Part shown: piece by piece, positions 14,504 through 60,203 of the stretch
Layout: each line of letters starts with the position of its first letter
Numbering within the stretch: the stretch's first letter is position 1
Assembly (NCBI GenBank): GCA_050949505.1
Contig: JBMNFV010000001.1
Span: forward strand, 573,644 to 637,643
Origin: Patescibacteria group bacterium
GTDB taxonomy: Bacteria > Patescibacteriota > Patescibacteriia > Patescibacteriales > UBA12465
Direction of reading: 5' to 3'
DNA: 64,000 bases
Translations under genes and position numbers: made by a program
Notes under the pieces: model-generated
Seen by the model: only the letters and a program-made list of their open reading frames with translations
The model's database searches: none
What the model was told of the DNA's origin: nothing

Positions 14504-14750
14504 ATTCTTTATTTTAACCCCTTTTAATTATCTTGGCAACTAAAAGAGGTTTGACACAAGGGCAGCCTAGAAATGTCGTAGTGGTGGGCTATTTAGAGAT
14601 GTCATTCCTCCTTAATTTATTATTTTTATTAACTAGAGCAGTTAACAATTATTTATCCCCAAATTTTAGCTGAGGTTTAGTAATAACTTAAATGTTCTTT
14701 AGGGATTTTTTGCCATAATAGTTAAACTTATTAACTAACTAAAAAATCCT

Positions 14751-15437
14751 ATGAAAATATTAATTATTGACGATGAATTAAGTATTTTAGAATTCCTTAA
14801 AGAAGGCCTTAAGAGCAAACTATATGACGTTGACTGTGCTAGTGATGGCGAGCGAGGGGCTTGGCTAGCTAAAACTGGAAGTTATGATTTAGTAATACTA
14901 GACTACACTTTACCTAAAATGAATGGAGCCCAAGTGCTAAAGGAAATTAGAGCAGAAAAGAAGCATTTACCAGTGATCATTTTAAGTGTCGCCTCTGAAT
15001 TAAAAAACAAACAAGAATTATTTTCTCTTGGGGCTGATGACTATCTCACTAAGCCCTTTTTATTAGAAGAATTATTACTAAGAATTGAGGCCGTGCTAAG
15101 AAGGCCTCAGAAGCTAAGTCCTGATTTATATAAAATAGATAATCTAACTTTTAACGCTAGCGCTCGCACCGTTAGGCGCGCGGGGCGAGAAATATATTTA
15201 ACTAGACGAGAATTCTTTTTATTAGAATACTTTCTAAAAAATCGCAATATTATTCTTTCTCGTCAACAGATTCTAGAAAACGTTTGGGATTATAATGCCG
15301 ATCCCTTTTCTAATTCTATTGAAACTCATATTGCTAGCTTGCGCCGTAAATTAAATCAGGGAAAATACCGAGAGCTCATTCATACCTTTAGTGGTCGGGG
15401 GTACAAGTTGGCTTTGAATAAATTAACTGACAACTAG
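14751..15437 (+). CDS. OmpR/PhoB-family response regulator (no adjacent histidine kinase)
   Basis: 228-aa ORF. Receiver domain (DDE.., DLVILDYTLPKMNG, LTKPF) followed by a winged-helix trans_reg_C domain (LTRREFFLLEYF..GRGYKL). Confidence 0.85.
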   Translation: MKILIIDDELSILEFLKEGLKSKLYDVDCASDGERGAWLAKTGSYDLVILDYTLPKMNGAQVLKEIRAEKKHLPVIILSVASELKNKQELFSLGADDYLTKPFLLEELLLRIEAVLRRPQKLSPDLYKIDNLTFNASARTVRRAGREIYLTRREFFLLEYFLKNRNIILSRQQILENVWDYNADPFSNSIETHIASLRRKLNQGKYRELIHTFSGRGYKLALNKLTDN

Positions 15438-19515: not shown

Positions 19516-19589
19516 TGGCACGGGCGGTAGGAATCGAACCCACGCTAAAGGTTTTGGAGACCTCGGTACTACCACTATACGACGCCCGC
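19516..19589 (-). tRNA. tRNA-Trp (anticodon CCA), 3' CCA encoded
   Basis: Minus strand: GCGGGCGTCGTATAGTGGTAGTACCGAGGTCTCCAAAACCTTTAGCGTGGGTTCGATTCCTACCGCCCGTGCCA. Folds as a cloverleaf by hand, with anticodon loop CTCCAAA. Confidence 0.9.
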
Positions 19590-19676: not shown

Positions 19677-20291
19677 CTACCAAGGATAATAACCAATTTT
19701 CAGGGCTGCTTGAAAATCACGCAGCTCTTGTTCCAGAGAGAATCTCAATTCTCCATCCTCTTTAAAGAGAAGGTCGTAATAATACCGATGCAACTCTTTA
19801 TAAATCATCATTAAGAGCTCTCTAGCCCGATTGTCTTGAGGATACACTTCTTTGATAACTTTTCTAACAATAACTAGATCTTTAGATCTTTTTTTAACTA
19901 CTGCTAGAAAATATGCATTAGTCCAAAAAGCAACCCCTTGAGAAATAAAGGCCCTTTTAAATATTGCCCGAACATCAGCTTTACCTGCTCCTGACAAATT
20001 ATCATAACAGGCAAGCACCTCAGACAAGTTTTCCATGGACATTAGTTCTGTTAAGTGCCCAGAAATCATCCTTATTTCCCTCGCTCCCTCAAAAACTCCT
20101 GCTGGAGTTCTCCTAATTGAGACCAAGAACTTGATCAGATCTTTGTCTCGGATCGCCTCTAGGATAGCAACTTTAGTGGTTGCTGCTCTAGCAAGCCTTG
20201 AGACAAAAACAATGCCCGTTCCTAATAGCACTATAACTATTAGCCAGGTCGGCATCAGCCACCCATAATTCTCTGTAAAAAATACTTGCAT
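19677..20291 (-). CDS. Orphan membrane-anchored protein, no recognisable family
   Basis: 204-aa ORF with one N-terminal TM helix (WLMPTWLIVIVLLGTGIVFV) and a helical remainder. It has its own strong SD (GGGAGGGGG), an upstream 18-nt motif and its own terminator. Confidence 0.5.
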   Translation of the reverse strand: MQVFFTENYGWLMPTWLIVIVLLGTGIVFVSRLARAATTKVAILEAIRDKDLIKFLVSIRRTPAGVFEGAREIRMISGHLTELMSMENLSEVLACYDNLSGAGKADVRAIFKRAFISQGVAFWTNAYFLAVVKKRSKDLVIVRKVIKEVYPQDNRARELLMMIYKELHRYYYDLLFKEDGELRFSLEQELRDFQAALKIGYYPW

Positions 20292-20320
20292 AATCTCGCC
20301 CCCTCCCTTGGGCCTTTATA

Positions 20321-20338
20321 TTTAATTGTTAAATAACT
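20321..20338 (-). promoter_or_regulatory. 18-nt motif AGTTATTTAACAATTAAA (minus strand), copy 1
   Basis: The plus strand reads TTTAATTGTTAAATAACT, identical to 51421-51438. It ends 29 nt upstream of the orphan ATG at 20291 and contains the inverted repeat TTTAA-N3-TTAAA. Confidence 0.35.
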
Positions 20339-20343
20339 GAAAT

Positions 20344-21504
20344 TTAACGCTGAAATCTTTTAGGTAGCCACCAGGGCTTCTTTGTTTCTTTTTCAGCCTC
20401 TCCTGCTAAAATTCTTTGTGACTCTTTCTTTAGCTCCCGACAATCACTTCCGTCTAAAGAATCACAAAACTCTAATTCGTAAATATGAAAAACTGTGACC
20501 ATTAAGGCGATAATTAGAGGACCAACTATTATTCCCCAGAAGCCAAATAATGTTAAGCCTCCGAGAATGGAAAATAGGACAAAGATGGGATTAACCTCAG
20601 CATCATCTTTGATCATTAAGGCCCTGATAACATTATCGATCGTCCCGATAATTAAGGCTCCCCAAGCGAGAATAAAAATTCCCTCTCTGATGTCTCCTGA
20701 TAAGAGATAAAATATTCCCACGGGCACATAAAAAATCATTGAACCCACATAAGGCAGGAGTGATAGTAGGGCGACTAGAACTCCAGCCAGTAGTGGCGGA
20801 AAGCCCACTATCCAAAAACCAATTGCGCCCACCACTCCCTGTCCAGCTGCGGCAACGAAAGTGGAGATAAAAATGGAATAACTAACTTTACGGAATTTAT
20901 TAAAAATTACCCGATCATGGTCATTAGACAGAGGCGATAACAACATAATTCGCTTAAGAATCTTAGGTCCATCAACAAAGAAAAAGAACATGGATAAGAC
21001 AATAAAGACTAAGGAGATAATAAATTTAGTCGTTTCCCTAAAAATTGCCACGGCTCCCGTTAAAAATATCCCACTAACCTTCTTAGAAATTTCTAAAATA
21101 GTACTCTGAAAAGCCTCGCTACCAGTATTAATCTTCTCTAGTCCTAAATACTGCAAGGGAGAGTCTTGAATAATGCTTTGATCAAAAAGATCGCCAAAGG
21201 AATTGTTTTCAAAAAAAGTCACTGTATTACTATACAGATCTAATGACTTTTGTCCCCCGAAAGAAATTAATTTAACCACCGGAATAATTACTACCAAGAC
21301 CAACAAGAGGCACATAATTAGGGCCGCCAAATTTCTTCTCCCCTTCATTGCCTTAACTAAATACTCAAAGGGTGAATAAAAGACAGACACTAATATAGTG
21401 GCCACTAATACTTCTAATAAGAATGGGCGGAAAATTAAATAAGCCAAAAAAAGAACCCCGGCCACTAAAATAATAAGAAATGGCTTAGCTAAATTTTTGG
21501 TCAT
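20344..21504 (-). CDS. AI-2E family transporter (PerM/YhhT-like permease)
   Basis: 386-aa polytopic membrane ORF with AI-2E-like topology and conserved C-terminal helices (LLSLLPYVG, GGLTLFGFWGIIVGP). Confidence 0.75.
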   Translation of the reverse strand: MTKNLAKPFLIILVAGVLFLAYLIFRPFLLEVLVATILVSVFYSPFEYLVKAMKGRRNLAALIMCLLLVLVVIIPVVKLISFGGQKSLDLYSNTVTFFENNSFGDLFDQSIIQDSPLQYLGLEKINTGSEAFQSTILEISKKVSGIFLTGAVAIFRETTKFIISLVFIVLSMFFFFVDGPKILKRIMLLSPLSNDHDRVIFNKFRKVSYSIFISTFVAAAGQGVVGAIGFWIVGFPPLLAGVLVALLSLLPYVGSMIFYVPVGIFYLLSGDIREGIFILAWGALIIGTIDNVIRALMIKDDAEVNPIFVLFSILGGLTLFGFWGIIVGPLIIALMVTVFHIYELEFCDSLDGSDCRELKKESQRILAGEAEKETKKPWWLPKRFQR

Positions 21505-38460: not shown

Positions 38461-41157
38461 TTATAGGTCTTTAGCTGGCTCTATCTCTAGGCGCCCTCGT
38501 TGATTAATCATAATTGTATCTCGTCGCTTCAGTTCGCCACTCAAAAACTTAACAGCAATCTCATTTTCTATCTCATCTTGAAGTAGTCGCCTTAAAGGTC
38601 GGGCCCCAAATTTAGGGTCATAACCTTTTTTAGCTAAAACCTTTACTCCCTTTTTGTCTGCCTTTAGGCCAACTCCCTTAAGCTCTAAGTTTTTCTTGAT
38701 CTGCTTTAACATAATGGTAGCAATCGCTTCCACATTTTCTGGACTCAAGGGCTTAAAGACAATGATGCCATCAAAACGATTAATTAATTCTGGGCGAAGA
38801 TGTTTATTTAAATGATTATCTATTAATTCCTGTCTAATCTCTGCCATCTTAGTCTCTGCTTTAATTTCTTGCTGAATATACAAAGCCCCGATATTAGAGG
38901 TAGCGATAATAATTGACTCAGTAAAATTAATAGTTCTGCCCTGGCCATCCGTTAGGCGACCATCATCTAGGAGTTGGAGGAAAAGATTTAAGATATCGGG
39001 ATTGGCCTTTTCTATTTCATCAAAGAGAATTAAGGAAAATGGCTTCTTCCTAACTGCCTCCGTGAGATAGCCTAAGGTGCCATCTGGATCACCAATCATT
39101 TTCTTAATACTATCTAGCCCCTGATATTCACTCATATCTATTCTAATCAAATAGTCTTCAGCCCCAAAATAAATATCAGAAACGGCTTTAGCGAGCTCCG
39201 TCTTACCCACTCCAGTAGGCCCCATAAACAAAAAGCTAGCAATGGGGCGATTAGAACCTTTAAGTTGTACTCGCGCTCGCCTGAGACTAGCCGCCACCGC
39301 CTTAACCGCCTCCTCTTGACCGATTAATCGTTGGTGAATTTCGGCCTCTAGATTTAATAACTTCTGACTTTCATCTATACTGATTTTATTCACTGGAATG
39401 CCAGTTAATTCCCCAATGGCAATAGCCACCTCTTCCCCGGAACAACTAGACTGCTCCGGATTATTCTGCGCTCGTTGTCTAGTAATTAGGGCTGCTTTTT
39501 CTAGTAAATCTATTGCCTTAGCTGGTAAGGATCTTTCGTGTAGATATTTTTTAGACATCTTCACCGCTTGTTCTAAGGCACTATAGACAATGAAAATATC
39601 ATACTTAGCCTCCAGTGAGCCAACCTTGCTTTCTAGAATTTGTACCGCTTCATTAAATTCAGGCTCGCTAATCTTTATTCTAGTCATAACCGAGCCTAGG
39701 GCTTGATTTTCTATATAACGATGATAATTCTCTTCAGTTGCTGAGGCCAGGCAGCGCAAATGATTCCTTTTTAACGCCTCGGCGAGCACCTCTGATAAAT
39801 CTAGGCTTTCCTGAGTGCCGGCACTGACTCCAATAAGATTTTCAATATTATCAATATATAAAACTATATTACCAGAACGACCGATCTCATTAATCATCAC
39901 TAATAGTCGCTCCTGAGCTTGAGCAGGATTAGCTCCAGAAATTAGACGAGAAACGTCTAGTTCCACTAAGCGTTTGTCCTTGAGAAAATCTGGTACTTTT
40001 TCTTCCACCATTAGCTGACTAAGTCCATTAATAATGGTTCGCTTACCAACCCCAATCGGCCCACTTAAGATAATGCCGTTCTGGCCACTAAGAAAAGCAT
40101 CAAAGATAGACTTTAACTCCTGCTCACGGGCAACACAAAGTTCAGTTTGATTATATTTAGACTGAACTGTTAGGTCATGAGAAAAGTGGTCTAGAGTGGG
40201 CGTGGAAATGGCGGTGTATGACCGATTCATTCCTGAGTCTGGTTTTAATAAGGCTGACTTTCGGTACTTACGATAATTAGACAGCATCTTCTTGTTGACC
40301 CGAAACCACGCTACCGCATTATGAATTTTATCTTGGTCTATTTCTAGTTCATACAATATTTCTATCAACCAAGCATCGCCCGCATAAGAGAAGTTTAATA
40401 AATTTAAGACATCAACATTCGGTTGTTGAAGTTCATGAGCCTCCACAAAAGACTGAATAAGAATTTTTTTCAAACTCTGATTAAAGTCATATTCCTTAGC
40501 AATTCCCGTCTCTGGTCGCTTGAGCAAGTTAGTGTCAATTAATTCCACTAATCTTTTTATATCCACATCCAAGCGGATCATTAATGCTTGAATCTCCTTG
40601 TCTTGCAACAAAACTCTAAACAGGTGCAGTGAGGTGATCTCTTTTTGGCCCAAACGTCTGGCTAACAAAAAGGTCTCTCCTAACGTGGCGGTAATCTTAG
40701 GCCCATAGGCCAGGCTAACATTATAAATTCGCTTAGAAACAGTTTTCTTTTGGCGACTGTCACTAAACTTACGGTAATTAATCTTATTATCCGCCACTCG
40801 CGCCTCACTATTTTTGTAAACTAGAAATAGATTAAAGGTGGTGGTTAATAAGAAGATTAGAATTAGCGGGTCTCGCTGCAACCAAAAGGTTAGTAGTAAG
40901 GTGGGGTCAGCCAAAATGGCCTGATGATTAAAGTATAGCCAAAGACCCAAAGAGAGGTAGCCTAAATAAACTATTGCCCAGAAAATAAACTTAATAATTT
41001 TTTTAATGCGCTTTTTATTTTTCTCTAACACTACTACTGAGCGAGAAAACTTTTTACCCCAAATTAACTCATAACCTAAATACCACAGACTAGGCGAGTC
41101 AGTGGGTCGGTGGTATCCATAGTGAAGATTAGAAAAGTTGGTCTTCTCTAAATTCAT
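38461..41157 (-). CDS. Membrane-anchored Hsp100/Clp-family AAA+ protein with a degenerate first ATPase module
   Basis: 898-aa ORF. Two N-terminal TM helices and a Clp_N-like repeat. D1 reads GPIGVGKRT / VLYIDNIENLIG where clpB has GEAGTGKTA / [13 protein letters not shown]2 is canonical ([26 protein letters not shown]). No long M-domain and no IGF/LGF loop seen. Confidence 0.75.
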   Translation of the reverse strand: MNLEKTNFSNLHYGYHRPTDSPSLWYLGYELIWGKKFSRSVVVLEKNKKRIKKIIKFIFWAIVYLGYLSLGLWLYFNHQAILADPTLLLTFWLQRDPLILIFLLTTTFNLFLVYKNSEARVADNKINYRKFSDSRQKKTVSKRIYNVSLAYGPKITATLGETFLLARRLGQKEITSLHLFRVLLQDKEIQALMIRLDVDIKRLVELIDTNLLKRPETGIAKEYDFNQSLKKILIQSFVEAHELQQPNVDVLNLLNFSYAGDAWLIEILYELEIDQDKIHNAVAWFRVNKKMLSNYRKYRKSALLKPDSGMNRSYTAISTPTLDHFSHDLTVQSKYNQTELCVAREQELKSIFDAFLSGQNGIILSGPIGVGKRTIINGLSQLMVEEKVPDFLKDKRLVELDVSRLISGANPAQAQERLLVMINEIGRSGNIVLYIDNIENLIGVSAGTQESLDLSEVLAEALKRNHLRCLASATEENYHRYIENQALGSVMTRIKISEPEFNEAVQILESKVGSLEAKYDIFIVYSALEQAVKMSKKYLHERSLPAKAIDLLEKAALITRQRAQNNPEQSSCSGEEVAIAIGELTGIPVNKISIDESQKLLNLEAEIHQRLIGQEEAVKAVAASLRRARVQLKGSNRPIASFLFMGPTGVGKTELAKAVSDIYFGAEDYLIRIDMSEYQGLDSIKKMIGDPDGTLGYLTEAVRKKPFSLILFDEIEKANPDILNLFLQLLDDGRLTDGQGRTINFTESIIIATSNIGALYIQQEIKAETKMAEIRQELIDNHLNKHLRPELINRFDGIIVFKPLSPENVEAIATIMLKQIKKNLELKGVGLKADKKGVKVLAKKGYDPKFGARPLRRLLQDEIENEIAVKFLSGELKRRDTIMINQRGRLEIEPAKDL

Positions 41158-41707: not shown

Positions 41708-44350
41708 ATGTTTAATAAATTCACTGACAAAAGCCAAGAAGCAATCATTAATTCCCAGCTAATTGCCTCAGCCTTTGGGCAGGCTGATATTGGCGCTCTG
41801 CACATGCTGCTATCCTTATTACAACAGCGAGAAAGCTTGGTAAGAGCTATTTTAGAAAAGATGAAAATAGACCCTGAAGTTATAGAAGAAGCGGTTATTA
41901 AGGAAATAGAGAAATTACCTAAAGTAAAAACTCCCAGCAAGAGCACTCCCATGCAATCGGTTTCTGGCACTCCTGAAACTGCCCTGATCTTAGAACGATC
42001 CAAGAAAGAGGCCGACGGCATGGGAGATGACTTTATCTCCACCGAACACTTATTGCTCGCTCTCATAGGCATTGAGTCTGATGCGCAGGCGATTCTCTTA
42101 AGTTTCCAAGTGGAATTAAAGTCAGTTAAGGAGATATTAAAGTCCTTACGGGGCAATCAAAGGGTTCACGACCCCTTTCCGGAAAATAAATATAATGTCT
42201 TAGAAAAATACACTAGCAATCTCACCGAATTAGCTCGTCAAGAAAAACTGGACCCGGTTATCGGTCGCGATCAGGAAATTAGGCGGATCATGCAAGTGCT
42301 TCTGCGCCGCACTAAAAACAATCCCGTCTTAATTGGTGAGGCTGGCACCGGAAAAACCGCTATTGTTGAGGGACTAGCCCAAAGAATAGTGGCTGGTGAT
42401 GTTCCTGAAAATTTGAAGAATAAAGAAGTGGTCACCTTAGACCTAGGCTCTTTAGTGGCGGGAGCTAAATTTCGGGGAGAATTTGAAGATCGTTTTAAAG
42501 CCGTCCTTAAAGAAGTTCAGTCTCAAAATGGCAAGATCATTCTCTTTATTGATGAGCTCCACACCCTAATCGGTGCGGGAGCTTCCGAGGGCTCTATGGA
42601 TGCTTCTAATATGTTAAAGCCGGCTCTGGCACGCGGTGAGCTCCGAACCATTGGGGCCACCACTACCAAAGAGTATCAAAAATATATTGAAAAAGATGCC
42701 GCTTTGGAGAGGCGCTTTCAGCCAGTGATGGTCAATGAGCCGAATTTAGATGATGCGGTTTCTATGTTAAGAGGACTTAAAGAAAAATATGAAGTCCATC
42801 ACGGGGTAAGGATCACTGACAACGCTTTAATTGCTGCTGTTAAGCTATCTAACCGCTATATTAGTGATCGCTTTCTGCCTGATAAGGCGGTTGACTTAAT
42901 TGATGAAGCCACCTCTTCCCTGCGCATGGAGATAGACTCTATGCCTGATGATTTAGACCAACTTAAGCGAGAAATTAAGCAATTGGAATTAAATAAGGCG
43001 GGACTAATGACTACCAATAAGCGCTCTGCTAAGCTCCGCACTATTAACCAAGAGTTGGCTAAGTTAAAAGAGCAAGCCACGCAGCTAGAATTGCATTGGA
43101 ATAATGAGAAGAATATTATTTCTCAAATTCGGGAATCTAAAAAGAAGATTGATGACCTTAAAATTCAAGCCGAGATCGCCCAACGTCAAGGCAGTGACCT
43201 AACTGAGGTAGCGAAAATAAAATATGGCCTAATCCCGGACTTAGAAAACAATATTAACGAACGTCAAAATGAATTAGTTAAAATTCAAAAACAAGGACAA
43301 CGAATTCTCAAGGAGGAAGTAGACGAAGAGGATATTGCTAAGGTGGTCGCTCGCTGGACTGGAATTCCCCTTAATCGCATGCTCCAAGATGAAATAAAAA
43401 AACTAAGTGAAGCCGAAGCTGAGTTGGAAAAAGTAGTGGTAGGGCAATCAGAGGCTATTCAAGCAATTGCTAACGCTATTCGTCGCTCTCGGGCGGGAAT
43501 TAATGAAGAGAAAAAACCAATTGGCTCTTTCCTCTTTGTTGGTCCTAGTGGAGTAGGAAAAACTGAACTAGCTAAGGCCTTAGCTCGCTTTATGTTTAAC
43601 GACGACAAATCCTTAATTAGATTAGACATGAGTGAATTTATGGAGCGTCATTCTGTGGCTAAATTAATTGGCTCCCCTCCTGGCTATGTTGGTCATGATG
43701 AAGGCGGACAATTAACTGACCGCGTTCGTCGTCATCCCTATAGTGTTATTCTCTTTGATGAAATAGAGAAGGCTCACCCAGACATGTTTAACATGTTGCT
43801 ACAAATTCTTGATGATGGTCGCCTAACTGATTCTAAGGGACGAACCGTTAACTTTAAAAATACTATTATCATTATGACCTCCAATTTGGGCAATGAGGTG
43901 ATCAGACAATATTCAATTGGTTTTGCTGACACCTCTAATCAGACTGAGGTCGCTGTTCAACAAACCTCTGAAATGAAGGCTAAGATAGATAAAATTCTAA
44001 AAAACCACTTTAAGCTGGAATTTCTCAATCGGATTGATGAAATTGTCCTTTTCCGCAGCCTCAGTCTTAAGGCTCTAGAAAAGATCGTGGACCTAGAGCT
44101 TAATAAGGTAGAAGCGAGGTTGAATAATAAAAATATTAATCTGCGAATTACTCCTAAGATCAAAAAGATGTTAGCTGAGAAAGGTTATGACATTACCTAT
44201 GGGGCCCGACCCTTAAAGCGCATTATTCAGACTATGATCTTAGATGAACTGGCTCTAGATATCATTGCTAACAAAATTAAGGATGGGGATAAGGTAAAAA
44301 TAGATTTAAATAAGCAAGAAGCGATTGATATTAGCATTCTTAAACGATAA
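41708..44350 (+). CDS. clpB: Chaperone ClpB (Hsp100 disaggregase)
   Basis: 880-aa ORF. Clp_N, D1 ([15 protein letters not shown]), a long coiled-coil M-domain, D2 ([25 protein letters not shown]). Confidence 0.92.
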
Positions 44351-49301: not shown

Positions 49302-49352
49302 AAATAAACTAACCGCTGCTATCTCTATGTAGTTAACAATTAAAATTCTTAC

Positions 49353-50920: not shown

Positions 50921-50953
50921 GAAAAATAAAAAGTGACTTATTATAAGTCACTT
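50921..50953 (-). terminator. Terminator of orphan gene 50948-51370
   Basis: Perfect 10-bp hairpin AAGTGACTTA-TTA-TAAGTCACTT that includes the stop codon. The minus strand continues TTTTTATTTTT. Confidence 0.5.
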
Positions 50954-51370
50954 AAAATTTATAGTTTTCCGCGTCACCTTCCAGATGGCGCGTATCACCT
51001 TCTTGTCCCCTACCTGTCCTGGCATTCGCCAAGGACTGAGGCTAATGGCCGATAAGCCTTGACCACCAAGTCTTTTAAAGAAGCAATCTCGGCACAAGGC
51101 TATTTCCTCTAAGTGACAACTGCCCCCGAAGAATCTCACTGGAGTCACTTCGGCTGGACCGAGGCAACACTGACACTTAGTGTCTGCGACCGCCTGATCT
51201 ACTCTAGCCACCAAGCTTATTAAGCTACGGTGAAGTTGATTGGGGCTCTTTGGATTAGCCCCTTTTGTCTCTAAATTGTATTTTAGAGCAAGAAAGTCAT
51301 TTATCTGGTACTTCAACATCCAGGATAATGACTTGCCAGCATGTTTGCCGGATTTAAGGATATATTCCAT
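50948..51370 (-). CDS. Orphan Cys-rich (zinc-ribbon-like) protein, GC-richer than its surroundings
   Basis: 140-aa ORF. CQCC..x16..CH..x7..CRDC cysteine pattern. It has its own SD (GGGGAGAG), an upstream 18-nt motif and its own terminator, and looks clearly more GC-rich by eye than the flanks. Confidence 0.45.
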   Translation of the reverse strand: MEYILKSGKHAGKSLSWMLKYQINDFLALKYNLETKGANPKSPNQLHRSLISLVARVDQAVADTKCQCCLGPAEVTPVRFFGGSCHLEEIALCRDCFFKRLGGQGLSAISLSPWRMPGQVGDKKVIRAIWKVTRKTINFK

Positions 51371-51420
51371 TTTCTCTCCCCTAGCTTACCCCACTACTGG
51401 TCTCACTAGAGGTCTCCTTT

Positions 51421-51438
51421 TTTAATTGTTAAATAACT
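51421..51438 (-). promoter_or_regulatory. 18-nt motif AGTTATTTAACAATTAAA (minus strand), copy 2
   Basis: The plus strand reads TTTAATTGTTAAATAACT, identical to 20321-20338. It ends 50 nt upstream of the orphan ATG at 51370. Confidence 0.35.
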
Positions 51439-52042
51439 TATTTTAAATCTAAATACTCTAGCATAGATATAGAAAAATGTCAATTGTCTCAACCTACATT
51501 CTGCTCCCAATCTTAGTTTTTACAGAGACATTTTTGCTTAGTGTAATAATTATCTAGCTAATAATTAGCTATCCAACTAGAGTCTTGTTGGCATCACTTT
51601 AAAGTAATTTGAATTAGTGTATTGATTTTAATAATCTCAAGCTTTTTCAGGTATCTCTTGTCTGATTTTTCTGGTTCAGGGATATATTTTTTCTATTATT
51701 TTTTTATCACCGACAGATAATTTTTCAACATGAAGATCGTGTCCGTTTTTAAATGATTTCTAACCCACGCTTTTTCTTTTATCGCTTTATCAATAACATT
51801 TTTCTGTTGATATTTATATTATAGGCAATATAAAAAAATATTATCAATAATTATGTAAAGAAACCTTTACATTAAACTTAATGATAATTGAGAGAATCAA
51901 ATCGGTATCCAATTTTTTAGCTAATTTTTTCAGTTAAATACAGCCAGGACCCATCATTGGAAGCCAAATTAGAAGCTGCTATTTCTACCTTGGGAACTGC
52001 CCCTCTCTGCTCATTTTTTAGCTCAAATTTCATAATATAAAA

Positions 52043-52070
52043 AATATATTGACCCTTGGTTCAATATATT
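52043..52070. repeat. Perfect 10-bp inverted repeat with 8-nt spacer
   Basis: AATATATTGA-CCCTTGGT-TCAATATATT, located between the tRNA-Ser 3' end and a 38-codon mini-ORF. Confidence 0.6.
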
Positions 52071-52108
52071 TAATGATAATATCAGTTTTTTAACTTGCTA
52101 ACTACTAG

Positions 52109-52193
52109 CGGAGAGTAAGGGATTCGAACCCTTGATACCTTGCGGTATACTCGCTTTCCAAGCGAGCGCACTAGACCACTATGCGAACTCTCC
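52109..52193 (-). tRNA. tRNA-Ser (anticodon GGA), long variable arm
   Basis: Minus strand: GGAGAGTTCGCATAGTGGTCTAGTGCGCTCGCTTGGAAAGCGAGTATACCGCAAGGTATCAAGGGTTCGAATCCCTTACTCTCCG. Anticodon loop TTGGAAA. Confidence 0.9.
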
Positions 52194-52224
52194 TGTATGG
52201 GCCTTAAAGGCCCAATCTTTTTTA

Positions 52225-52950
52225 TTACTCTAACTCCCCCAACTTTCTTTCTACTAAGGAAAACAATCCCTCCACTTGAGTCCCACTAGAGTCCTCATAG
52301 TCATCATAGGGTCTCGCCCCAATGATTAGTTCCTCGCCAATAAACATAGTTGGCGCTCCTAAAATATTGCTTTCTGCTAGGGCTAGTACTAGTTCATCTA
52401 ATTTTTCATATTTTTCTAAATCAGTCAAGCAGTTAGCAAAATCTCGCTCTTTTAACTTTAGCGCTTGCCCATACTCCACACTATTATTAACACTTAAACT
52501 CTGATCTCTGGTAGCGGCTAATAACAGTTCTCGCATTTCTTGCCATTTGCCCTGCTCTTTAGCGCATTCTAGCATTAAATAACTATCCCGAGAATTAATA
52601 TTTTCCTTAATCACAAAGGGACGCACTACTAGGGCGACCTCTTTCTTATGGGCCTGATAAACCTTATCTAAAGACTCGGCTAGCTCAGCACTAAAAATAT
52701 TAGCAACATCCTCATAAACGAATATTGGCAAACTGGCCTTCTGGCTACCAATCACCTGATCTTCTTTAGTAATCACTAGCTCATTGTCCGTCTGATATGA
52801 CTGCTTATTAGCCCCCGCTAGCTTTTCTCCCGACTTTATCTCTGGTGAGTTTAATTGTCCTTTAAGCAACAAAGCCACTACTAGAATTACTCCTACCAAG
52901 ACTAGGCCACTAATTATTACTATTTTTTTATTCTTCATATTATTAATCAT
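52225..52950 (-). CDS. Membrane-anchored DsbA-like thioredoxin-fold protein lacking the CxxC motif
   Basis: 241-aa ORF. N-terminal TM helix and a DsbA-like layout with the cis-Pro loop GAPTMFIG. The position of the active-site CxxC reads YEDVANIFSAEL. Confidence 0.55.
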   Translation of the reverse strand: MINNMKNKKIVIISGLVLVGVILVVALLLKGQLNSPEIKSGEKLAGANKQSYQTDNELVITKEDQVIGSQKASLPIFVYEDVANIFSAELAESLDKVYQAHKKEVALVVRPFVIKENINSRDSYLMLECAKEQGKWQEMRELLLAATRDQSLSVNNSVEYGQALKLKERDFANCLTDLEKYEKLDELVLALAESNILGAPTMFIGEELIIGARPYDDYEDSSGTQVEGLFSLVERKLGELE

Positions 52951-57485: not shown

Positions 57486-60203
57486 CTACTTAGACTTATT
57501 CTTAATCTCTAAAATGCTTAGTCTAGCCTCTAAATTATTAATTATTTTCTGCTGTTCCTTCACAGCTTCTATTAAAGGCGCCACTAAGTTACCATACTGT
57601 ACCCCCTTCTCATCGTCACCAGAGACTAACTCAGGGAAAATCTTTTCTACTTCTTGAGCAATGAGACCAACACTAGGCTTCCCATTCTCTTTCCAGGTGA
57701 AGTTAACTCCTCGCAAAGCCAAGACCTTATCCAAGGCTCCACTGATCGTCCGAACATCTTTCTTTAACCTAATATCCGAATTATAAACGAATCCTAAAGA
57801 CCTCGCCTGACCATTGATGTCTAGCTTGTACTGAGGACTGTTAGTCCCAATACCAACTCTCCCTGTTCCATTGCCATCAGACCTTGTAATCATAAACTCT
57901 GGAATACTGGGAAAGGTGCCTCCTGATGTATCCTTTATAGAAAAGGCGTCTACTGCATAAGTATTGCCACTCTCTATTCTCCAACGTCTATAATTCCCAC
58001 TAGTTTGATGTATAAGCGTTATGTCTGCTGGCCCACTAGTATTATTTATCTCTAGCTTAGCCCCAGGATTAGTAGTACCAATACCAACTCGCCCACTATT
58101 ATTTTCAACTAATACTTTCCTCCAAGTTCCCCAAGTAGTTGCTCCGGTTGAAAGCCTAGTCCATAAGTTGCCATTACTAGTATAAGATAGTTGCATCACT
58201 GGTCCTCCAGAAAAGTCTGTAGTGTTACCATAGCTCTTCCAAGTCATCACCCCATTGTAGCTTCCTCCATCATATAGTCCATTAGTGCCATTTGATTTAA
58301 AATCAAATTTAACAACCGCAGGATAAGCATTAGGGCTATCATTAACACTTCTGGTATCTCTCGATCTTAAAAAGATAGCCGCGTCTACCTCATCTACTGC
58401 TCCGCAATATATTCTACCCGTAGAATCCGTTTTCAAAGCGCTCCCTGATGCGGTGCAAGTCAAATTAGTCCTTATAGTCCCTACTACATGCAACTTATCA
58501 AGAGGATTAGTAGTACCAATACCGACATTGCCATTATCCAATATTCTCATTCTTTCTTGGACATTACTACCTCCTGTTCTAAATATCATATCTCCTGCCC
58601 CTCCACTTCTTCTTATTCCTCCTATCTCTGGACCATAGCCAACGCTAGTGCTAGTCCTAAACTTAATAGTCGCTCCTCCATTTTCATTAGTGGTGTCAGC
58701 TGCAGTTACTCCCATTAATTCTATATAAGGACGAACTGTTCCTGGCGTTCCTTGACTGGCTATTCTTAATATTGAAGTTGAAGTTGGTCCACTAAAAACA
58801 GACCCTCCTAATAAGACTGGACCACCAACAACATTTAATTTATTAATGCCTGGATTACTCGTTCCTATTCCCACATTACCATTACTCGCTAAAATAGTCA
58901 TCCTTTCTATATTATTAGTCTTTATTCCTATATCATAGTTATTACTAGACCCAAACATTCCTTTACCGCCGCCAGTTATATTATTCCCTCCCACATACCA
59001 AGGAGAAGCAGGAGTGGTGGGTGCTAATGCATTAGCTATGCCATCTACATAACTTTTAGTAACTGCACTACTAGAAGTTAATGGAGTATCTACATGTACT
59101 TGTCCCTTAAGATAAGTATTGGTTATGTTGTCATTTCCTAAAACTACAGTACTTGAGCCTTTGCCTATAGCATTATAGCCAATCACAATTTCATTATTAG
59201 TTCCATCTGCCGAGGCTTTAGAATTAGCCCCTATATACACTCCATAATTACCAGTTGTTCTAGTCGCTTTGTTATCTGCCAACCTACTGCCTGCATGCAA
59301 GCCTATTCCCACATTTCCCGTTCCTGAAGTTTGATAATATAGAGAATAGACTCCTACTCCTGTATTAGAATTACCTGTTTTATGACTAACTAAAGCACCA
59401 TGACCAAGTGCTGAATTATCATTTCCATCTATATTATTACCCAACGAAGACCCTCCAATGGCAACGTTTTGATAGCCTGTTTCATTACTGCGCAAAGCAA
59501 CATTTCCAAAAGCTAGATTTTTAAAACCCGAGGTAGTAGATGCTAACGCCTCGCTTCCAATTGCTGTATTTAGATATCCAGTGGTCAACTTAGTCAATGC
59601 TAAGTATCCCATTGCTGTATTGAATCTTCCTTCAGTTATTGAGGTTAAAGTATTGGCACCAACAGCTATATTGTATGATCCGTGAGCACTACTACTACCT
59701 CTCATGGTAAAATTACCTGAATTCATGCCTATAAAGACATTGTAACCATCACGTCCTGCTGGTTTAAAATCATGAATAAAGGGAATGCCATCTTTATAAA
59801 TCACTCCCGTAGTAGTGCTAGTAGTCACTGGTAAACGAAGACTACCAGTTAACTGTAATTGCTGTTGAGGATTGGTGGTGCCGATACCCACTCTAGTCCC
59901 ATTATCATATAACACTCCTGTGCCCAGAGTACTAGCTCCAGTCCAGCGAGCGGTATAATTAGCGATCCCTGTGCCTCCTGTTCCTCCTGCGCTACCACAC
60001 TCTAAGAATCCTCCATTTCCCACAATAATCACCTCGCCTTCATCACAATCTAAGTTATCTACTCTTAGTCTAGTTGATATAAAAACATCCTTGGTGTCGC
60101 CAATCTCAATCTCCAGTGCTTGCGTTTGACTGGTTGCTAAAACTACGCCACCAATAATTATTGCTAGCGCTAATAATGAATTAATAAAGGTTGATTTTTT
60201 CAT
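57486..60203 (-). CDS. Secreted tail-fibre-like surface protein with a C-terminal S74-type intramolecular chaperone domain
   Basis: 905-aa ORF. Signal peptide (ATSQTQA-LE), ~14-aa-period NxAxGxxAL head-like repeats (aa ~175-350), five G(N/R)VGIGTxxP modules, TKSYVDG motif and a C-terminal 97 aa beginning SDIRLKKDV..LRGVNFTWK..GLIAQEVEKIFPELV (57489-57779). Confidence 0.7.
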   Translation of the reverse strand: MKKSTFINSLLALAIIIGGVVLATSQTQALEIEIGDTKDVFISTRLRVDNLDCDEGEVIIVGNGGFLECGSAGGTGGTGIANYTARWTGASTLGTGVLYDNGTRVGIGTTNPQQQLQLTGSLRLPVTTSTTTGVIYKDGIPFIHDFKPAGRDGYNVFIGMNSGNFTMRGSSSAHGSYNIAVGANTLTSITEGRFNTAMGYLALTKLTTGYLNTAIGSEALASTTSGFKNLAFGNVALRSNETGYQNVAIGGSSLGNNIDGNDNSALGHGALVSHKTGNSNTGVGVYSLYYQTSGTGNVGIGLHAGSRLADNKATRTTGNYGVYIGANSKASADGTNNEIVIGYNAIGKGSSTVVLGNDNITNTYLKGQVHVDTPLTSSSAVTKSYVDGIANALAPTTPASPWYVGGNNITGGGKGMFGSSNNYDIGIKTNNIERMTILASNGNVGIGTSNPGINKLNVVGGPVLLGGSVFSGPTSTSILRIASQGTPGTVRPYIELMGVTAADTTNENGGATIKFRTSTSVGYGPEIGGIRRSGGAGDMIFRTGGSNVQERMRILDNGNVGIGTTNPLDKLHVVGTIRTNLTCTASGSALKTDSTGRIYCGAVDEVDAAIFLRSRDTRSVNDSPNAYPAVVKFDFKSNGTNGLYDGGSYNGVMTWKSYGNTTDFSGGPVMQLSYTSNGNLWTRLSTGATTWGTWRKVLVENNSGRVGIGTTNPGAKLEINNTSGPADITLIHQTSGNYRRWRIESGNTYAVDAFSIKDTSGGTFPSIPEFMITRSDGNGTGRVGIGTNSPQYKLDINGQARSLGFVYNSDIRLKKDVRTISGALDKVLALRGVNFTWKENGKPSVGLIAQEVEKIFPELVSGDDEKGVQYGNLVAPLIEAVKEQQKIINNLEARLSILEIKNKSK

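What the first reader, a model, noticed from the sequence alone, without database searches (positions are those of the whole stretch)
20321..20338. Identical 18-nt motif upstream of two unrelated orphan genes 31 kb apart
TTTAATTGTTAAATAACT occurs at 20321-20338 and again at 51421-51438. Both copies have the same orientation relative to a downstream minus-strand orphan gene, 29 nt and 50 nt before the ATG. My rough estimate for a chance identical 18-mer pair anywhere in an AT-rich 64-kb window is about 0.1-0.2. The matching position and orientation make chance less likely still. The motif contains the inverted repeat TTTAA-N3-TTAAA and does not read as a -35/-10 pair. A shared regulator-binding site or a relic of a common mobile-cassette end seems plausible.
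Basis: seen in the sequence. Interest (0 to 1): 0.55.

Follow-up and report, generated by a model that had tools for sequence, protein, structure and literature searches.

The report
Shared promoter-proximal regulatory box, two genes
The identical 18 bases in front of two unrelated small genes are real and very unlikely to be chance: they are two perfect copies of a conserved control sequence (core TTAACAATT) that sits just downstream of strong promoters in this group of ultra-small (Patescibacteria) bacteria, whose binding partner is still unknown.

Summary
TTTAATTGTTAAATAACT occurs exactly at 20321-20338 and 51421-51438. On the gene (minus) strand it reads AGTTATTTAACAATTAAA, 29 and 50 nt before the ATGs of a 204-aa and a 140-aa gene.

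An exact repeat of 18 nt or more somewhere in the window is not rare (0.15-0.32 in shuffles). Between two of the window's intergenic regions it is rare (about 1%).

Independent comparative evidence shows a real element:
- The 204-aa "orphan" has fast-evolving positional orthologues (23-28% identity) in three related species. Their leaders keep TT(T)AACAATT.
- TTAACAATT is among the most over-represented words of its composition in 911 leaders of relatives.
- Ten of 16 sense instances lie 11-22 nt after a TTGACx-N17-TAnnnT promoter, against 9.7% of control positions.
- The box recurs before PIN-PhoH genes. In one genome titled Candidatus Falkowbacteria it is the exact 18-mer.
- The window holds two further TTAACAATT sites, one upstream of the OmpR-type regulator gene.

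Best reading: an operator-like box for an unidentified sequence-specific factor, probably a repressor. A role in the 5' end of the mRNA is the main rival. The mobile-cassette idea is not supported. It is a new member of a known kind and of moderate interest.

The parts
20321..20338 (-). Box copy A. It reads AGTTATTTAACAATTAAA on the gene strand. It starts 5 nt after the AI-2E transporter stop codon (20344-20346) and ends 29 nt before the ATG of the 204-aa gene.
   Evidence: The core is conserved at the orthologous position in L097, L093 and L204.
51421..51438 (-). Box copy B, an identical 18-mer. It ends 50 nt before the ATG of the 140-aa gene and 3 nt before a strong Shine-Dalgarno-like AAGGAG.
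51455..51483 (-). Sigma-70-type promoter of copy B: TTGACA-N17-TAGAGT, with TG before the -10. The -10 ends 16 nt before the 18-mer and 22 nt before TTAACAATT.
49330..49345 (+). Partial copy C, TAGTTAACAATTAAAA, in inverted orientation. It matches 51420-51435 at 15 of 16 positions. It lies 8 nt beyond the ABC-F stop codon, so B and C bracket the 140-aa + ABC-F unit. No gene lies downstream of it in its own orientation.
   Evidence: (pair I4). The chance of such a match is about 0.02-0.03 by my own calculation.
14640..14651 (+). Site D, AGTTAACAATTA, about 100 nt upstream of the ATG of the OmpR-type response-regulator gene (14751-15437). It is the same 12-mer as in copy C.
19677..20291 (-). Gene for a 204-aa protein with an N-terminal transmembrane helix and an all-helical body. 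It evolves fast and has positional orthologues in relatives.
50948..51370 (-). Gene for a 140-aa protein with four conserved cysteines (zinc-ribbon / treble-clef-like). It belongs to a very rare family.
20298..20313 (-). Hairpin GCCC-AAGGGAGG-GGGC, which presents the Shine-Dalgarno sequence of the 204-aa gene in its loop. Orthologues keep the hairpin with changes on both arms (CCGCC/GGCGG, and GGTGG in L204).
51386..51406 (-). Possible 6-codon upstream ORF (GTG...TAA) that starts 7 nt after the AAGGAG following copy B.
   Evidence: Read directly from the sequence. Inference only.

Best explanation
The 18-mer is two perfect copies of a lineage-conserved cis-regulatory box. Its invariant core is TTAACAATT. 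Extended, it reads (A/T)GTTAT-TTAACAATT-AAA, an imperfect palindrome of the type TTGTTA-TT-TAACAA. The box lies in the first ~10-30 transcribed bases, just downstream of strong sigma-70-type promoters.

The most likely mechanism is an operator. A sequence-specific DNA-binding protein, probably a repressor, sits on the box and blocks RNA polymerase as it leaves the promoter. This would put the 204-aa and 140-aa genes under one common control. At copy A the gene's own promoter has been lost, so the block would act on read-through from the AI-2E gene. The orphan OmpR-type response regulator at 14751 has a box upstream of its own gene and is the only obvious candidate in the window.

**Shown:** the identity, conservation, enrichment and promoter-linked position of the box.
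**Inferred:** that it acts as DNA rather than RNA, that it represses, and which protein binds it.
For: 1. **Not chance.** An intergenic-to-intergenic exact repeat of 18 nt arises in about 1% of simulations. The 18-mer has a probability of about 2e-9 per intergenic position.
2. **Orthologous conservation.** L097, L204 and L093 encode 23-28% identical positional orthologues of the 204-aa protein. Their leaders read TTGAC(G/T)-N17-TA(A/G)TAT, then 18-20 nt, then TT(T)AACAATT. The DNA box is better conserved than the protein.
3. **Enrichment in relatives.** In 917 leaders from about 1.08 Mb of relatives, TTAACAATT occurs 14 times in sense and 6 times in antisense. The mean for the 630 words of the same composition is 2.7, and only CTATAATAT, which contains the -10 box, scores higher. 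After collapsing orthologous contexts (911 leaders), it occurs in 10 independent contexts against a mean of 2.4, placing it in the top 0.6%.
4. **Promoter-linked position.** Ten of 16 sense instances have a promoter scoring at least 9 of 12, with a spacer of exactly 17, whose -10 ends 11-22 nt upstream. Only 9.7% of control positions do (p = 3e-7). Counting only independent groups not used to define the motif gives 4 of 8, p about 0.005 (my calculation).
5. **Frequency in this window.** TTAACAATT occurs 4 times in the window's intergenic DNA against 0.35 expected. One site is upstream of the response-regulator gene.
6. **The same gene family in different genomes.** PIN-PhoH gene leaders carry GT(T/A)A(T/C)TTAACAATT 16-17 nt after the -10 in L158, L171 and L057. 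L057 carries the exact 18-mer, and its record is titled Candidatus Falkowbacteria.
7. **Other Patescibacteria genomes.** L043 has TTGACA-N17-TATAAT-N8-18-mer-N11-ATG.
Against: - Copy A has no detectable promoter. The AI-2E stop codon is 5 nt upstream, so a classical operator has nothing of its own to control there.
- The left arm of the palindrome is weak in the window (AGTTAT against TTGTTA). The TTTAA-N3-TTAAA dyad is broken by a 1-nt insertion in L093 and L204.
- All leader instances are in the sense orientation, which would also fit an RNA-level role.
- No binding protein is identified.
- The exact 13-mer core is absent from 990 kb around the ABC-F genes of relatives, and matches with up to 1 mismatch are not significantly enriched there. 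The 12-mer count is only borderline (p = 0.06).
- Six exact 18-mer hits in Patescibacteria genomes of the species collection are not clearly more than the 3-4 I estimate by chance.
- Promoters here are consensus matches, not mapped transcription starts.
- Gene starts in relatives come from a crude ORF caller.
Confidence: 0.5

Rival explanations
1. The box acts in the mRNA rather than the DNA. It would be an A/U-rich, unstructured 5'-leader element near the 5' end of the transcript and upstream of the Shine-Dalgarno sequence. Possible roles are a ribosome standby or enhancer site, or a binding or cleavage site for an RNA-binding protein or RNase. Either would tune translation or stability of the two mRNAs.
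For: - Every leader instance is in the sense orientation.
- Copy A is retained in a purely intercistronic position without its own promoter, directly before a conserved hairpin that presents the Shine-Dalgarno sequence in its loop.
- Copy B and the L086 instance abut an AAGGAG(G) Shine-Dalgarno sequence.
- Conservation is asymmetric and tolerates a 1-nt insertion in the right arm.
- A synthetic high-efficiency model-mRNA leader happens to read UUAACAAUUAAGGAGG (PMC8131318). This is a lead only.
Against: - The distance to the start codon varies widely (-1 to 53 nt), while the distance to the -10 box is tight (11-22 nt, mostly 18-22).
- Enhancers that work through A/U-richness do not need a fixed 9-18-nt sequence.
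- No stable or conserved RNA structure includes the box.
- No complementary partner stands out. The ABC-F 3'UTR duplex energies with leaders A and B are no better than shuffled controls.
Confidence: 0.27
2. Coincidence. Two AT-rich leaders happen to share 18 bases, and the 'motif' elsewhere is an ordinary frequent word of AT-rich leaders.
For: - An exact repeat of 18 nt or more somewhere in a window like this occurs in 15-32% of shuffles.
- The 18-mer turns up 75 times in unrelated genomes and 15 times in viral contigs as single scattered hits.
- Two other words of the same composition reach the same de-duplicated leader count.
- A 15-nt leader word is also shared by two other genes (21512/31959).
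Against: - The intergenic-only chance is about 1%.
- The core is conserved at the orthologous position in three species whose proteins are only 23-28% identical.
- The promoter-distance association has p = 3e-7, or about 0.005 on independent groups.
- There are 4 intergenic copies of the 9-mer in the window against 0.35 expected.
- The box recurs before PIN-PhoH genes in different genomes.
Confidence: 0.1
3. A short-patch copy or relic of a mobile element or cassette end, with no present function. Copies B and C would be its terminal inverted repeats.
For: - The identity has sharp edges with unrelated flanks.
- Both genes are lineage-restricted and sit next to tRNA genes.
- B and the inverted partial copy C bracket the 140-aa + ABC-F unit.
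- Assemblies break at tRNA-Trp, and partial tRNA-Trp repeats exist in relatives.
Against: - The 204-aa gene and its box are ancestral at this position in related species.
- ABC-F is a conserved housekeeping gene present in all relatives.
- No transposase, integrase or cassette recombination site is present.
- The 140-aa family in other lineages has no box.
- No further exact copy turned up in the genome-collection scan, although the source genome was not in that collection.
Confidence: 0.08
4. The T-rich strand is the tail of an intrinsic terminator for antisense transcription. The pattern would be a hairpin followed by TTTTTAATTGTTAAA on the + strand.
For: - The scan flags GGTCTCACTAGAGGTC followed by TCCTTTTTTA on the + strand at 51399-51414, running into copy B.
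- Orthologous leaders read CCGCC-N7-GGCGG-TTTTTAATTG on the antisense strand.
- The L101 instance sits in the T-tract of a strong bidirectional terminator.
Against: - The stems are only 4-6 bp, and the + strand fold at copy B is no better than shuffles (z = 0.09).
- No gene on that strand needs terminating.
- Most lineage instances (L113, L124, L127, L158, L171) have no adjacent hairpin.
Confidence: 0.05

Closest known systems
Rex operator (redox-sensing repressor), 18-bp palindrome TTGTTAA-N4-TTAACAA as listed for Thermoanaerobacterium (PMC5886521)
   Same: - The right half-site TTAACAA is identical to the invariant part of the box.
- Both are AT-rich and partly palindromic.
- Both are promoter-proximal, consistent with repression.
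- In relatives the 204-aa gene lies next to oxidative-stress genes (rubrerythrin, desulfoferrodoxin-N).
   Different: - The left arm abuts the right arm, giving a 14-bp TTGTTA-TT-TAACAA at best (L158). It is not 4 nt further away as in the 18-bp Rex box.
- At Rex spacing the window copies match only 2-3 of 7 left-arm positions.
- No rex gene is seen in the window.
- The genes carrying the box are not fermentation or NADH genes.
OmpR/PhoB-family response-regulator boxes built from TTAACA-type hexamers: B. subtilis PhoP TT(A/T/C)ACA repeats and WalR TGTWAH-N5-TGTWAH (from my own knowledge, not checked in a paper here)
   Same: - The box contains the hexamer TTAACA.
- The only response regulator in the window is OmpR-type, has no adjacent kinase gene, and has a box about 100 nt upstream of its own gene.
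- A PhoH-like gene recurs among the genes that carry the box.
   Different: - I saw no second hexamer in direct repeat at about 11 bp, by eye only.
- Most boxes lie downstream of the -10. That is a repressor position, not the usual activator position at -35.
A/U-rich translational enhancers and ribosome standby sites in 5' leaders. One example is the synthetic leader UUGUUAACAAUUAAGGAGG used in model mRNAs (PMC8131318)
   Same: - Sense-strand, A/U-rich and unstructured, lying upstream of a Shine-Dalgarno sequence.
- Eleven bases (UUAACAAUUAA) are identical to that synthetic leader.
- Copy B and the L086 instance abut the Shine-Dalgarno sequence.
   Different: - Such enhancers are defined by composition. 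This box is defined by sequence.
- Its position follows the promoter, not the start codon.
LexA (SOS) operators
   Same: - Imperfect palindromes that overlap or follow strong promoters.
- Small regulons that typically include lineage-specific small genes of unknown function.
   Different: - The sequence does not resemble GAAC-N4-GTTC or the other published LexA motifs quoted in PMC8565304.
- No recA or lexA gene lies in any locus fetched, so the link could not be tested.

Membership tests
Rex operator (ROP box) | Half-site TTAACAA / TTGTTAA | tested here: met
   TTAACAA is invariant in all instances.
Rex operator (ROP box) | 18-bp architecture: two inverted 7-bp half-sites separated by 4 bp | tested here: not met
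   At that spacing the left half reads AAATAAG (copy B) or ATTTCAG (copy A), 2-3 of 7 matches. The best palindromes (L158, L127, L171) have the arms adjacent, giving a 14-bp unit.
Rex operator (ROP box) | A rex gene in the genome, and a regulon of NADH / fermentation genes | not testable with these tools
   Only 64 kb of the 706-kb genome is available. No Rex-like gene is in the window.
Sigma-70 promoter (-35/-10) | Two hexamers resembling TTGACA and TATAAT, 16-18 bp apart, within or spanning the motif | tested here: not met
   The scans place no promoter on the 18-mer. The promoter of copy B lies upstream at 51483-51455.
Intrinsic terminator | G+C-rich stem of at least 5 bp followed by a T-run, on the strand of an upstream gene | tested here: not met
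   None is found on the gene strand. On the opposite strand there is only a weak hairpin with G-T pairs at copy B, and its fold is no better than shuffles.
OmpR/PhoB-type direct-repeat box | Two or more similar hexamers in direct repeat with a period of about 11 bp | tested here: inconclusive
   One TTAACA hexamer is present. Hexamers 11 bp away match at only 3-4 of 6 positions, by eye only. No binding data exist.
Mobile-element or cassette end (terminal inverted repeat, att or attC) | Repeat at the boundary of an inserted segment, with a recombinase or transposase gene, or an empty site in relatives | tested here: not met
   The flanks are unrelated. The 204-aa gene and its box are ancestral in relatives. 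No recombinase lies near either copy.
Known RNA families (Rfam 15) | A covariance-model match at or near the motif | tested here: not met
   Only tRNAs are found in the window. Nothing relevant appears in 51300-52250 up to an E-value of 1.
LexA / SOS box | The box lies upstream of lexA, recA and other repair genes | not testable with these tools
   No recA or lexA homologue is in the window or in about 2 Mb of fetched loci.
Transcription-factor operator (generic) | Recurs at a fixed position relative to promoters of several unrelated genes, and is conserved across species | tested here: met
Transcription-factor operator (generic) | Specific binding by a protein | not testable with these tools
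   This needs a gel-shift, DAP-seq or footprinting experiment.

The most novel reading that the evidence does not exclude
The TTAACAATT box marks a conserved regulon across Patescibacteria. The regulon would include PIN-PhoH ATPases, a KGG-type stress protein, and fast-evolving small membrane and zinc-ribbon proteins. It would be controlled from a fixed position about +10 to +30 after near-consensus promoters by a so far unrecognised global regulator, possibly the kinase-less OmpR-type response regulator. That would make it one of the first regulatory networks defined for these uncultured, reduced-genome bacteria. It would also explain how newly arising 'orphan' genes get wired into a common control.
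Probability: 0.25. Interest if true: 0.6.

Novelty: new member of a known kind. Interest (0 to 1): 0.45.

Why it matters
Almost nothing is known about how Patescibacteria (CPR) regulate their genes. They are uncultured, have few transcription factors, and many of their genes are lineage-specific and of unknown function.

This work gives a sequence-defined box with a fixed position after strong promoters. The box is conserved more strongly than the proteins it precedes and recurs before the same gene family (PIN-PhoH) in different genomes. That makes a concrete, testable handle. It predicts a co-regulated gene set, it names one candidate regulator, and it can be checked with metatranscriptomes and with proteins expressed in another host.

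For annotation, it shows that the two 'orphan' genes are real, expressed-looking genes with their own promoter or leader architecture, not ORF noise.

Tried and rejected
1. **Longer diverged repeat around the 18-mer.** The flanks align no better than shuffles.
2. **Whole-collection scans for the exact 18-mer.** There were 75 single hits in unrelated genomes and 15 in viral contigs. The source genome is not in the species collection, so no genome-wide count was possible. About 8 of the hits are yidD coding sequence, because the only open frame of the 18-mer encodes SYLTIK.
3. **Strain variation.** Seventeen same-species contigs are 98.8-100% identical and carry no change near either copy, so they give no information.
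4. **Synteny at locus 2.** Eighty ABC-F relatives do not keep the tRNA-Ser / 140-aa / ABC-F order. Only L177 has gatA and the DsbA-like gene upstream.
5. **Translocation of the old promoter region to locus 2, or rubrerythrin / desulfoferrodoxin pseudogenes in the 737-nt gap.** No similarity was found.
6. **The 140-aa family's own leaders.** They have promoters but no box, and are always paired with an ArsR-type gene that is absent from the window.
7. **ABC-F 3'UTR as an antisense RNA partner of the box.** Duplex energies are -15.6 and -12.0 kcal/mol against -14 +/- 3 for shuffles.
8. **Conservation upstream of type-IV-secretion pilin genes, prompted by the L101 hit.** Not conserved.
9. **Structure-based function for the two proteins.** No significant match in the solved-structure library.
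10. **A combined protein query to reach both loci in one search.** Only AI-2E hits were listed.
11. **Literature search for the sequence.** It returned primers and one synthetic mRNA leader. The paper on the Patescibacteria SOS network is not held.
12. **recA / lexA in the fetched loci, to test an SOS link.** None were found.

Full report
**Observation**

The 18-mer TTTAATTGTTAAATAACT is present exactly twice, at 20321-20338 and 51421-51438. The only other match with up to three mismatches is at 49327-49344 on the other strand. Both copies lie in front of minus-strand ORFs, so on the gene strand the motif reads AGTTATTTAACAATTAAA.
- Copy A ends 29 nt before the ATG of a 204-aa ORF (19677-20291). 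It starts 5 nt after the stop codon of an AI-2E-family transporter gene, and the whole spacer is only 52 nt.
- Copy B ends 50 nt before the ATG of a 140-aa ORF (50948-51370). It lies at the downstream end of a 737-nt ORF-free gap that follows tRNA-Ser.

The flanks of the two copies are no more alike than shuffled sequence. The window is 39.8% G+C and has the gene content of a Patescibacteria (CPR) genome. The same proteins occur on a 706-kb contig labelled 'Patescibacteria group bacterium'.

**Chance**

A non-self exact repeat of 18 nt or more somewhere in a window of this composition is unremarkable: 15% of order-1 and 32% of order-3 Markov shuffles have one. Both copies, however, are in the 5,015 intergenic bases (29% G+C). 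I simulated intergenic sets with Markov models trained on 124 kb of intergenic DNA from relatives. Only 0.9-1.5% contained any such repeat, and the 18-mer has a probability of about 2e-9 per intergenic position. On its own this is suggestive, given that the pair was picked after the fact. The comparative evidence below is independent of it.

**The genes are not strict orphans**

Neither protein finds anything but itself among 5.8 billion proteins in the word-indexed search.

Relatives whose AI-2E transporter is 73-76% identical keep the upstream gene order (triose-phosphate isomerase, TPR protein, TyrRS, pilins, Fpg, L33, AI-2E). They continue with rubrerythrin, a desulfoferrodoxin-N gene, a ~200-aa protein without Pfam match, and then tRNA-Trp. 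That ~200-aa protein is a remote homologue of the 204-aa protein:
- 27% identity, E = 2e-20 (L097)
- 28% identity, E = 1e-20 (L204)
- 23% identity, E = 1e-9 (L093)

The 204-aa gene is therefore a fast-evolving positional orthologue. The window genome has lost the rubrerythrin and desulfoferrodoxin genes and the promoter region in between, and no remnants were found.

The 140-aa protein has three remote homologues among 1.84 billion representative proteins (30-35% identity). All three are paired divergently with an ArsR-type regulator gene, and their leaders have promoters but no box. The two window proteins are unrelated to each other. Structure prediction gives a confident but unmatched zinc-ribbon-like fold for the 140-aa protein. 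For the 204-aa protein it gives a helical membrane-anchored model.

**Conservation at the orthologous position**

The leaders of the three orthologues read:
- TTGACG-N17-TAATAT-N19-TTTAACAATTAAAAA... (L097)
- TTGACG-N17-TAATAT-N19-TTTAACAATTTAAC... (L204)
- TTGACT-N17-TAGTAT-N18-TTAACAATTTAAAAAA... (L093)

Each is followed by a short G+C hairpin that carries GGAGG in its loop, and then the ATG. The window keeps the same module: box, hairpin GCCC-AAGGGAGG-GGGC, ATG. The block TTAACAATT is invariant although the proteins are about 25% identical. A chance exact 13-mer in the 137-nt L097 spacer would have a probability of about 1e-4 (my calculation).

Copy B has the same layout as the orthologues: TTGACA-N17-TAGAGT (with TG before the -10), then 16 nt, then the 18-mer. 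Copy A has no detectable promoter.

**A lineage-wide element**

I fetched 80 loci (990 kb) around ABC-F genes of relatives (66-79% identity), in addition to the AI-2E loci.
- The exact 13-mer core is absent from the ABC-F loci. Matches with up to 1 mismatch are not significantly enriched there, so the long form is not a generic word.
- The invariant 9-mer is a different matter. In 917 leader windows it occurs 14 times in sense and 6 times in antisense. The mean for the 630 words of the same composition is 2.7, and only CTATAATAT, which contains the -10 box, is more frequent.
- After collapsing orthologous contexts (911 leader windows), it has 10 independent contexts against a mean of 2.4, which places it in the top 0.6%. 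One of the ten is the orthologue group that defined the motif.
- Ten of 16 sense instances, window included, have a promoter scoring at least 9 of 12, always with a 17-nt spacer. Its -10 ends 11-22 nt upstream, mostly 18-22. Only 9.7% of control positions at the same distances from start codons have one (p = 3e-7).
- Counting only independent groups that were not used to define the motif gives 4 of 8, p about 0.005 (my calculation).
- The distance to the start codon is much looser (-1 to 53 nt).
- The genes behind the box are unrelated: an adenylosuccinate-lyase-like protein, membrane proteins, a flavoprotein, a Gly/Arg-rich zinc-ribbon protein, and PIN-PhoH ATPases.

**Beyond the immediate lineage**

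Of the 75 scattered genome-collection hits to the exact 18-mer, six are in Patescibacteria. All six are intergenic, in the sense orientation, and 5-68 nt before a start codon. I estimate 3-4 chance hits in Patescibacteria intergenic DNA, so the number alone proves nothing. Two of them do repeat the architecture:
- L043: TTGACA-N17-TATAAT-N8-18-mer-N11-ATG.
- L057: TTGATT-N17-TAGAAT-N16-18-mer. Its record is titled Candidatus Falkowbacteria.

The gene behind the L057 site is a PIN-PhoH ATPase. This is the same family that carries GT(T/A)A(T/C)TTAACAATT 16-17 nt after the -10 in L158 and L171, and weaker versions in L173/L175 and L164. In these sites the left flank completes an imperfect palindrome, TTGTTA-TT-TAACAA.

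**More sites in the window**

TTAACAATT occurs four times in the window's intergenic DNA against 0.35 expected. Only 2 of 630 same-composition words reach four. Besides A and B these are:
- Site C (49330-49345). It is inverted and matches copy B at 15 of 16 positions. It lies 8 nt past the ABC-F stop codon, so B and C bracket the 140-aa + ABC-F unit.
- Site D (14640-14651, AGTTAACAATTA). It lies about 100 nt upstream of the OmpR-type response-regulator gene. That gene and mraZ are the only regulator genes found in the window.

**Mechanism**

The element is sequence-specific. Its position follows the promoter rather than the start codon. It sits after near-consensus promoters and recurs before the same gene family in different genomes. 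These features fit an operator bound by a sequence-specific protein, most simply a repressor acting at about +10 to +30. At copy A it would act as a roadblock to read-through from AI-2E.

Against this reading:
- Copy A has no promoter of its own.
- The left arm of the palindrome is weak in the window.
- All leader instances are in the sense orientation.
- Copy B is followed directly by a Shine-Dalgarno sequence and a possible 6-codon upstream ORF.

These points keep an RNA-level leader function as a serious rival. I put the operator at about 0.5, the RNA element at about 0.27, coincidence at about 0.1, and relic or terminator readings below 0.1 each.

**Comparison with known systems**
- **Rex operator.** The right half of the box equals the Rex half-site TTAACAA (18-bp box TTGTTAA-N4-TTAACAA; PMC5886521). 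The spacing test fails, so it is not a Rex box.
- **OmpR/PhoB-type boxes.** The box contains a PhoP/WalR-type hexamer (TTAACA), but I saw no direct repeat.
- **LexA motifs.** It does not resemble the published LexA motifs, and no SOS genes were available to test the link.
- **Rfam.** Nothing matches here.
- **Synthetic mRNA leader.** An 11-nt identity with a synthetic efficient mRNA leader (PMC8131318) is noted as a lead only.

**Verdict**

'Shared regulator-binding site' is supported in substance, and 'mobile-cassette relic' is not. The element is a previously undescribed member of a familiar class, a promoter-proximal cis-regulatory box, in a group of bacteria whose regulation is almost unexplored.

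**Limits of this analysis**
- Promoters are consensus matches, not mapped starts.
- Gene starts in relatives come from a simple ORF rule.
- Only 9% of the source genome could be read.
- No binding partner is known.

Noticed in passing
window 51371-52107: A 737-nt gap between tRNA-Ser and the 140-aa gene has no ORF and no Rfam match. That is unusually long for this compact genome. It carries a near-consensus promoter (TTGATA-18-TATAAT, 51847 to 51818 on the minus strand). It could hold an unknown non-coding RNA, a long leader, or decayed genes.
   Followed up: partly
window 19516-19589 (tRNA-Trp); L004, L006-L008; L093, L097: Several independent assemblies of the same species end inside tRNA-Trp or diverge exactly at it. 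Two related species carry 19-23-nt partial copies of the tRNA nearby. This suggests an integration hot spot or strain-variable region downstream of tRNA-Trp.
   Followed up: partly
window 20292-20343, compared with L093, L097, L099, L100, L101, L204: This genome lacks the rubrerythrin and desulfoferrodoxin-N genes that follow the AI-2E transporter in six of the seven related species examined (L095 has the desulfoferrodoxin-N gene only). The last ~25 residues of its AI-2E protein also differ from those of the relatives.
   Followed up: partly
L102-L107 (homologues of the 140-aa protein): The four-cysteine 140-aa family is extremely rare, with 4 clusters among 1.84 billion representative proteins. 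Outside this genome it is always divergently paired with an ArsR-type HTH regulator gene across a conserved spacer.
   Followed up: partly
window 20298-20313; L097, L093, L204 leaders: A short G+C hairpin that presents the Shine-Dalgarno GGAGG in its loop is conserved in front of the 204-aa gene family. The arms differ on both sides between species (GCCC/GGGC against CCGCC/GGCGG, with a G-U pair in L204).
   Followed up: partly
L057, L158, L171, L173/L175, L164: PIN-PhoH (YlaK-like) ATPase genes of different Patescibacteria carry the box, or a weaker version of it, a fixed 16-17 nt after the -10 of a strong promoter.
   Followed up: partly
window 38461-41157 (-) and 41708-44350 (+): Two ClpB-type paralogues on opposite strands share exact inverted repeats of 20 and 17 nt (39011/43748 and 38951/43811).
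   Followed up: no
window 58065-58085 and 58503-58523: A 21-nt exact direct repeat lies inside the 905-aa Peptidase_S74-domain gene. It is probably an internal protein repeat.
   Followed up: no
genome-collection hits L020, L021, L022, L035, L042, L060, L068, L083: The 18-mer has stop codons in five of its six reading frames. Its single open frame encodes SYLTIK. Its hits in unrelated bacteria are often the conserved G-SYLTIK-R stretch of what looks like the yidD gene.
   Followed up: yes
window 51386-51406 (-): A possible 6-codon upstream ORF (GTG AGA CCA GTA GTG GGG TAA) has a strong AAGGAG Shine-Dalgarno sequence directly after box copy B. It ends 15 nt before the ATG of the 140-aa gene.
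   Followed up: no
L093 11690-11715: The rubrerythrin-to-desulfoferrodoxin spacer of one relative reads TAAGTTTC-GTTATTTATAAATTAAA. This closely resembles the window's TAAATTTCAGTTATTTAACAATTAAA, which also follows a stop codon (alignment score 30 against 16 +/- 2.5 for shuffles).
   Followed up: partly
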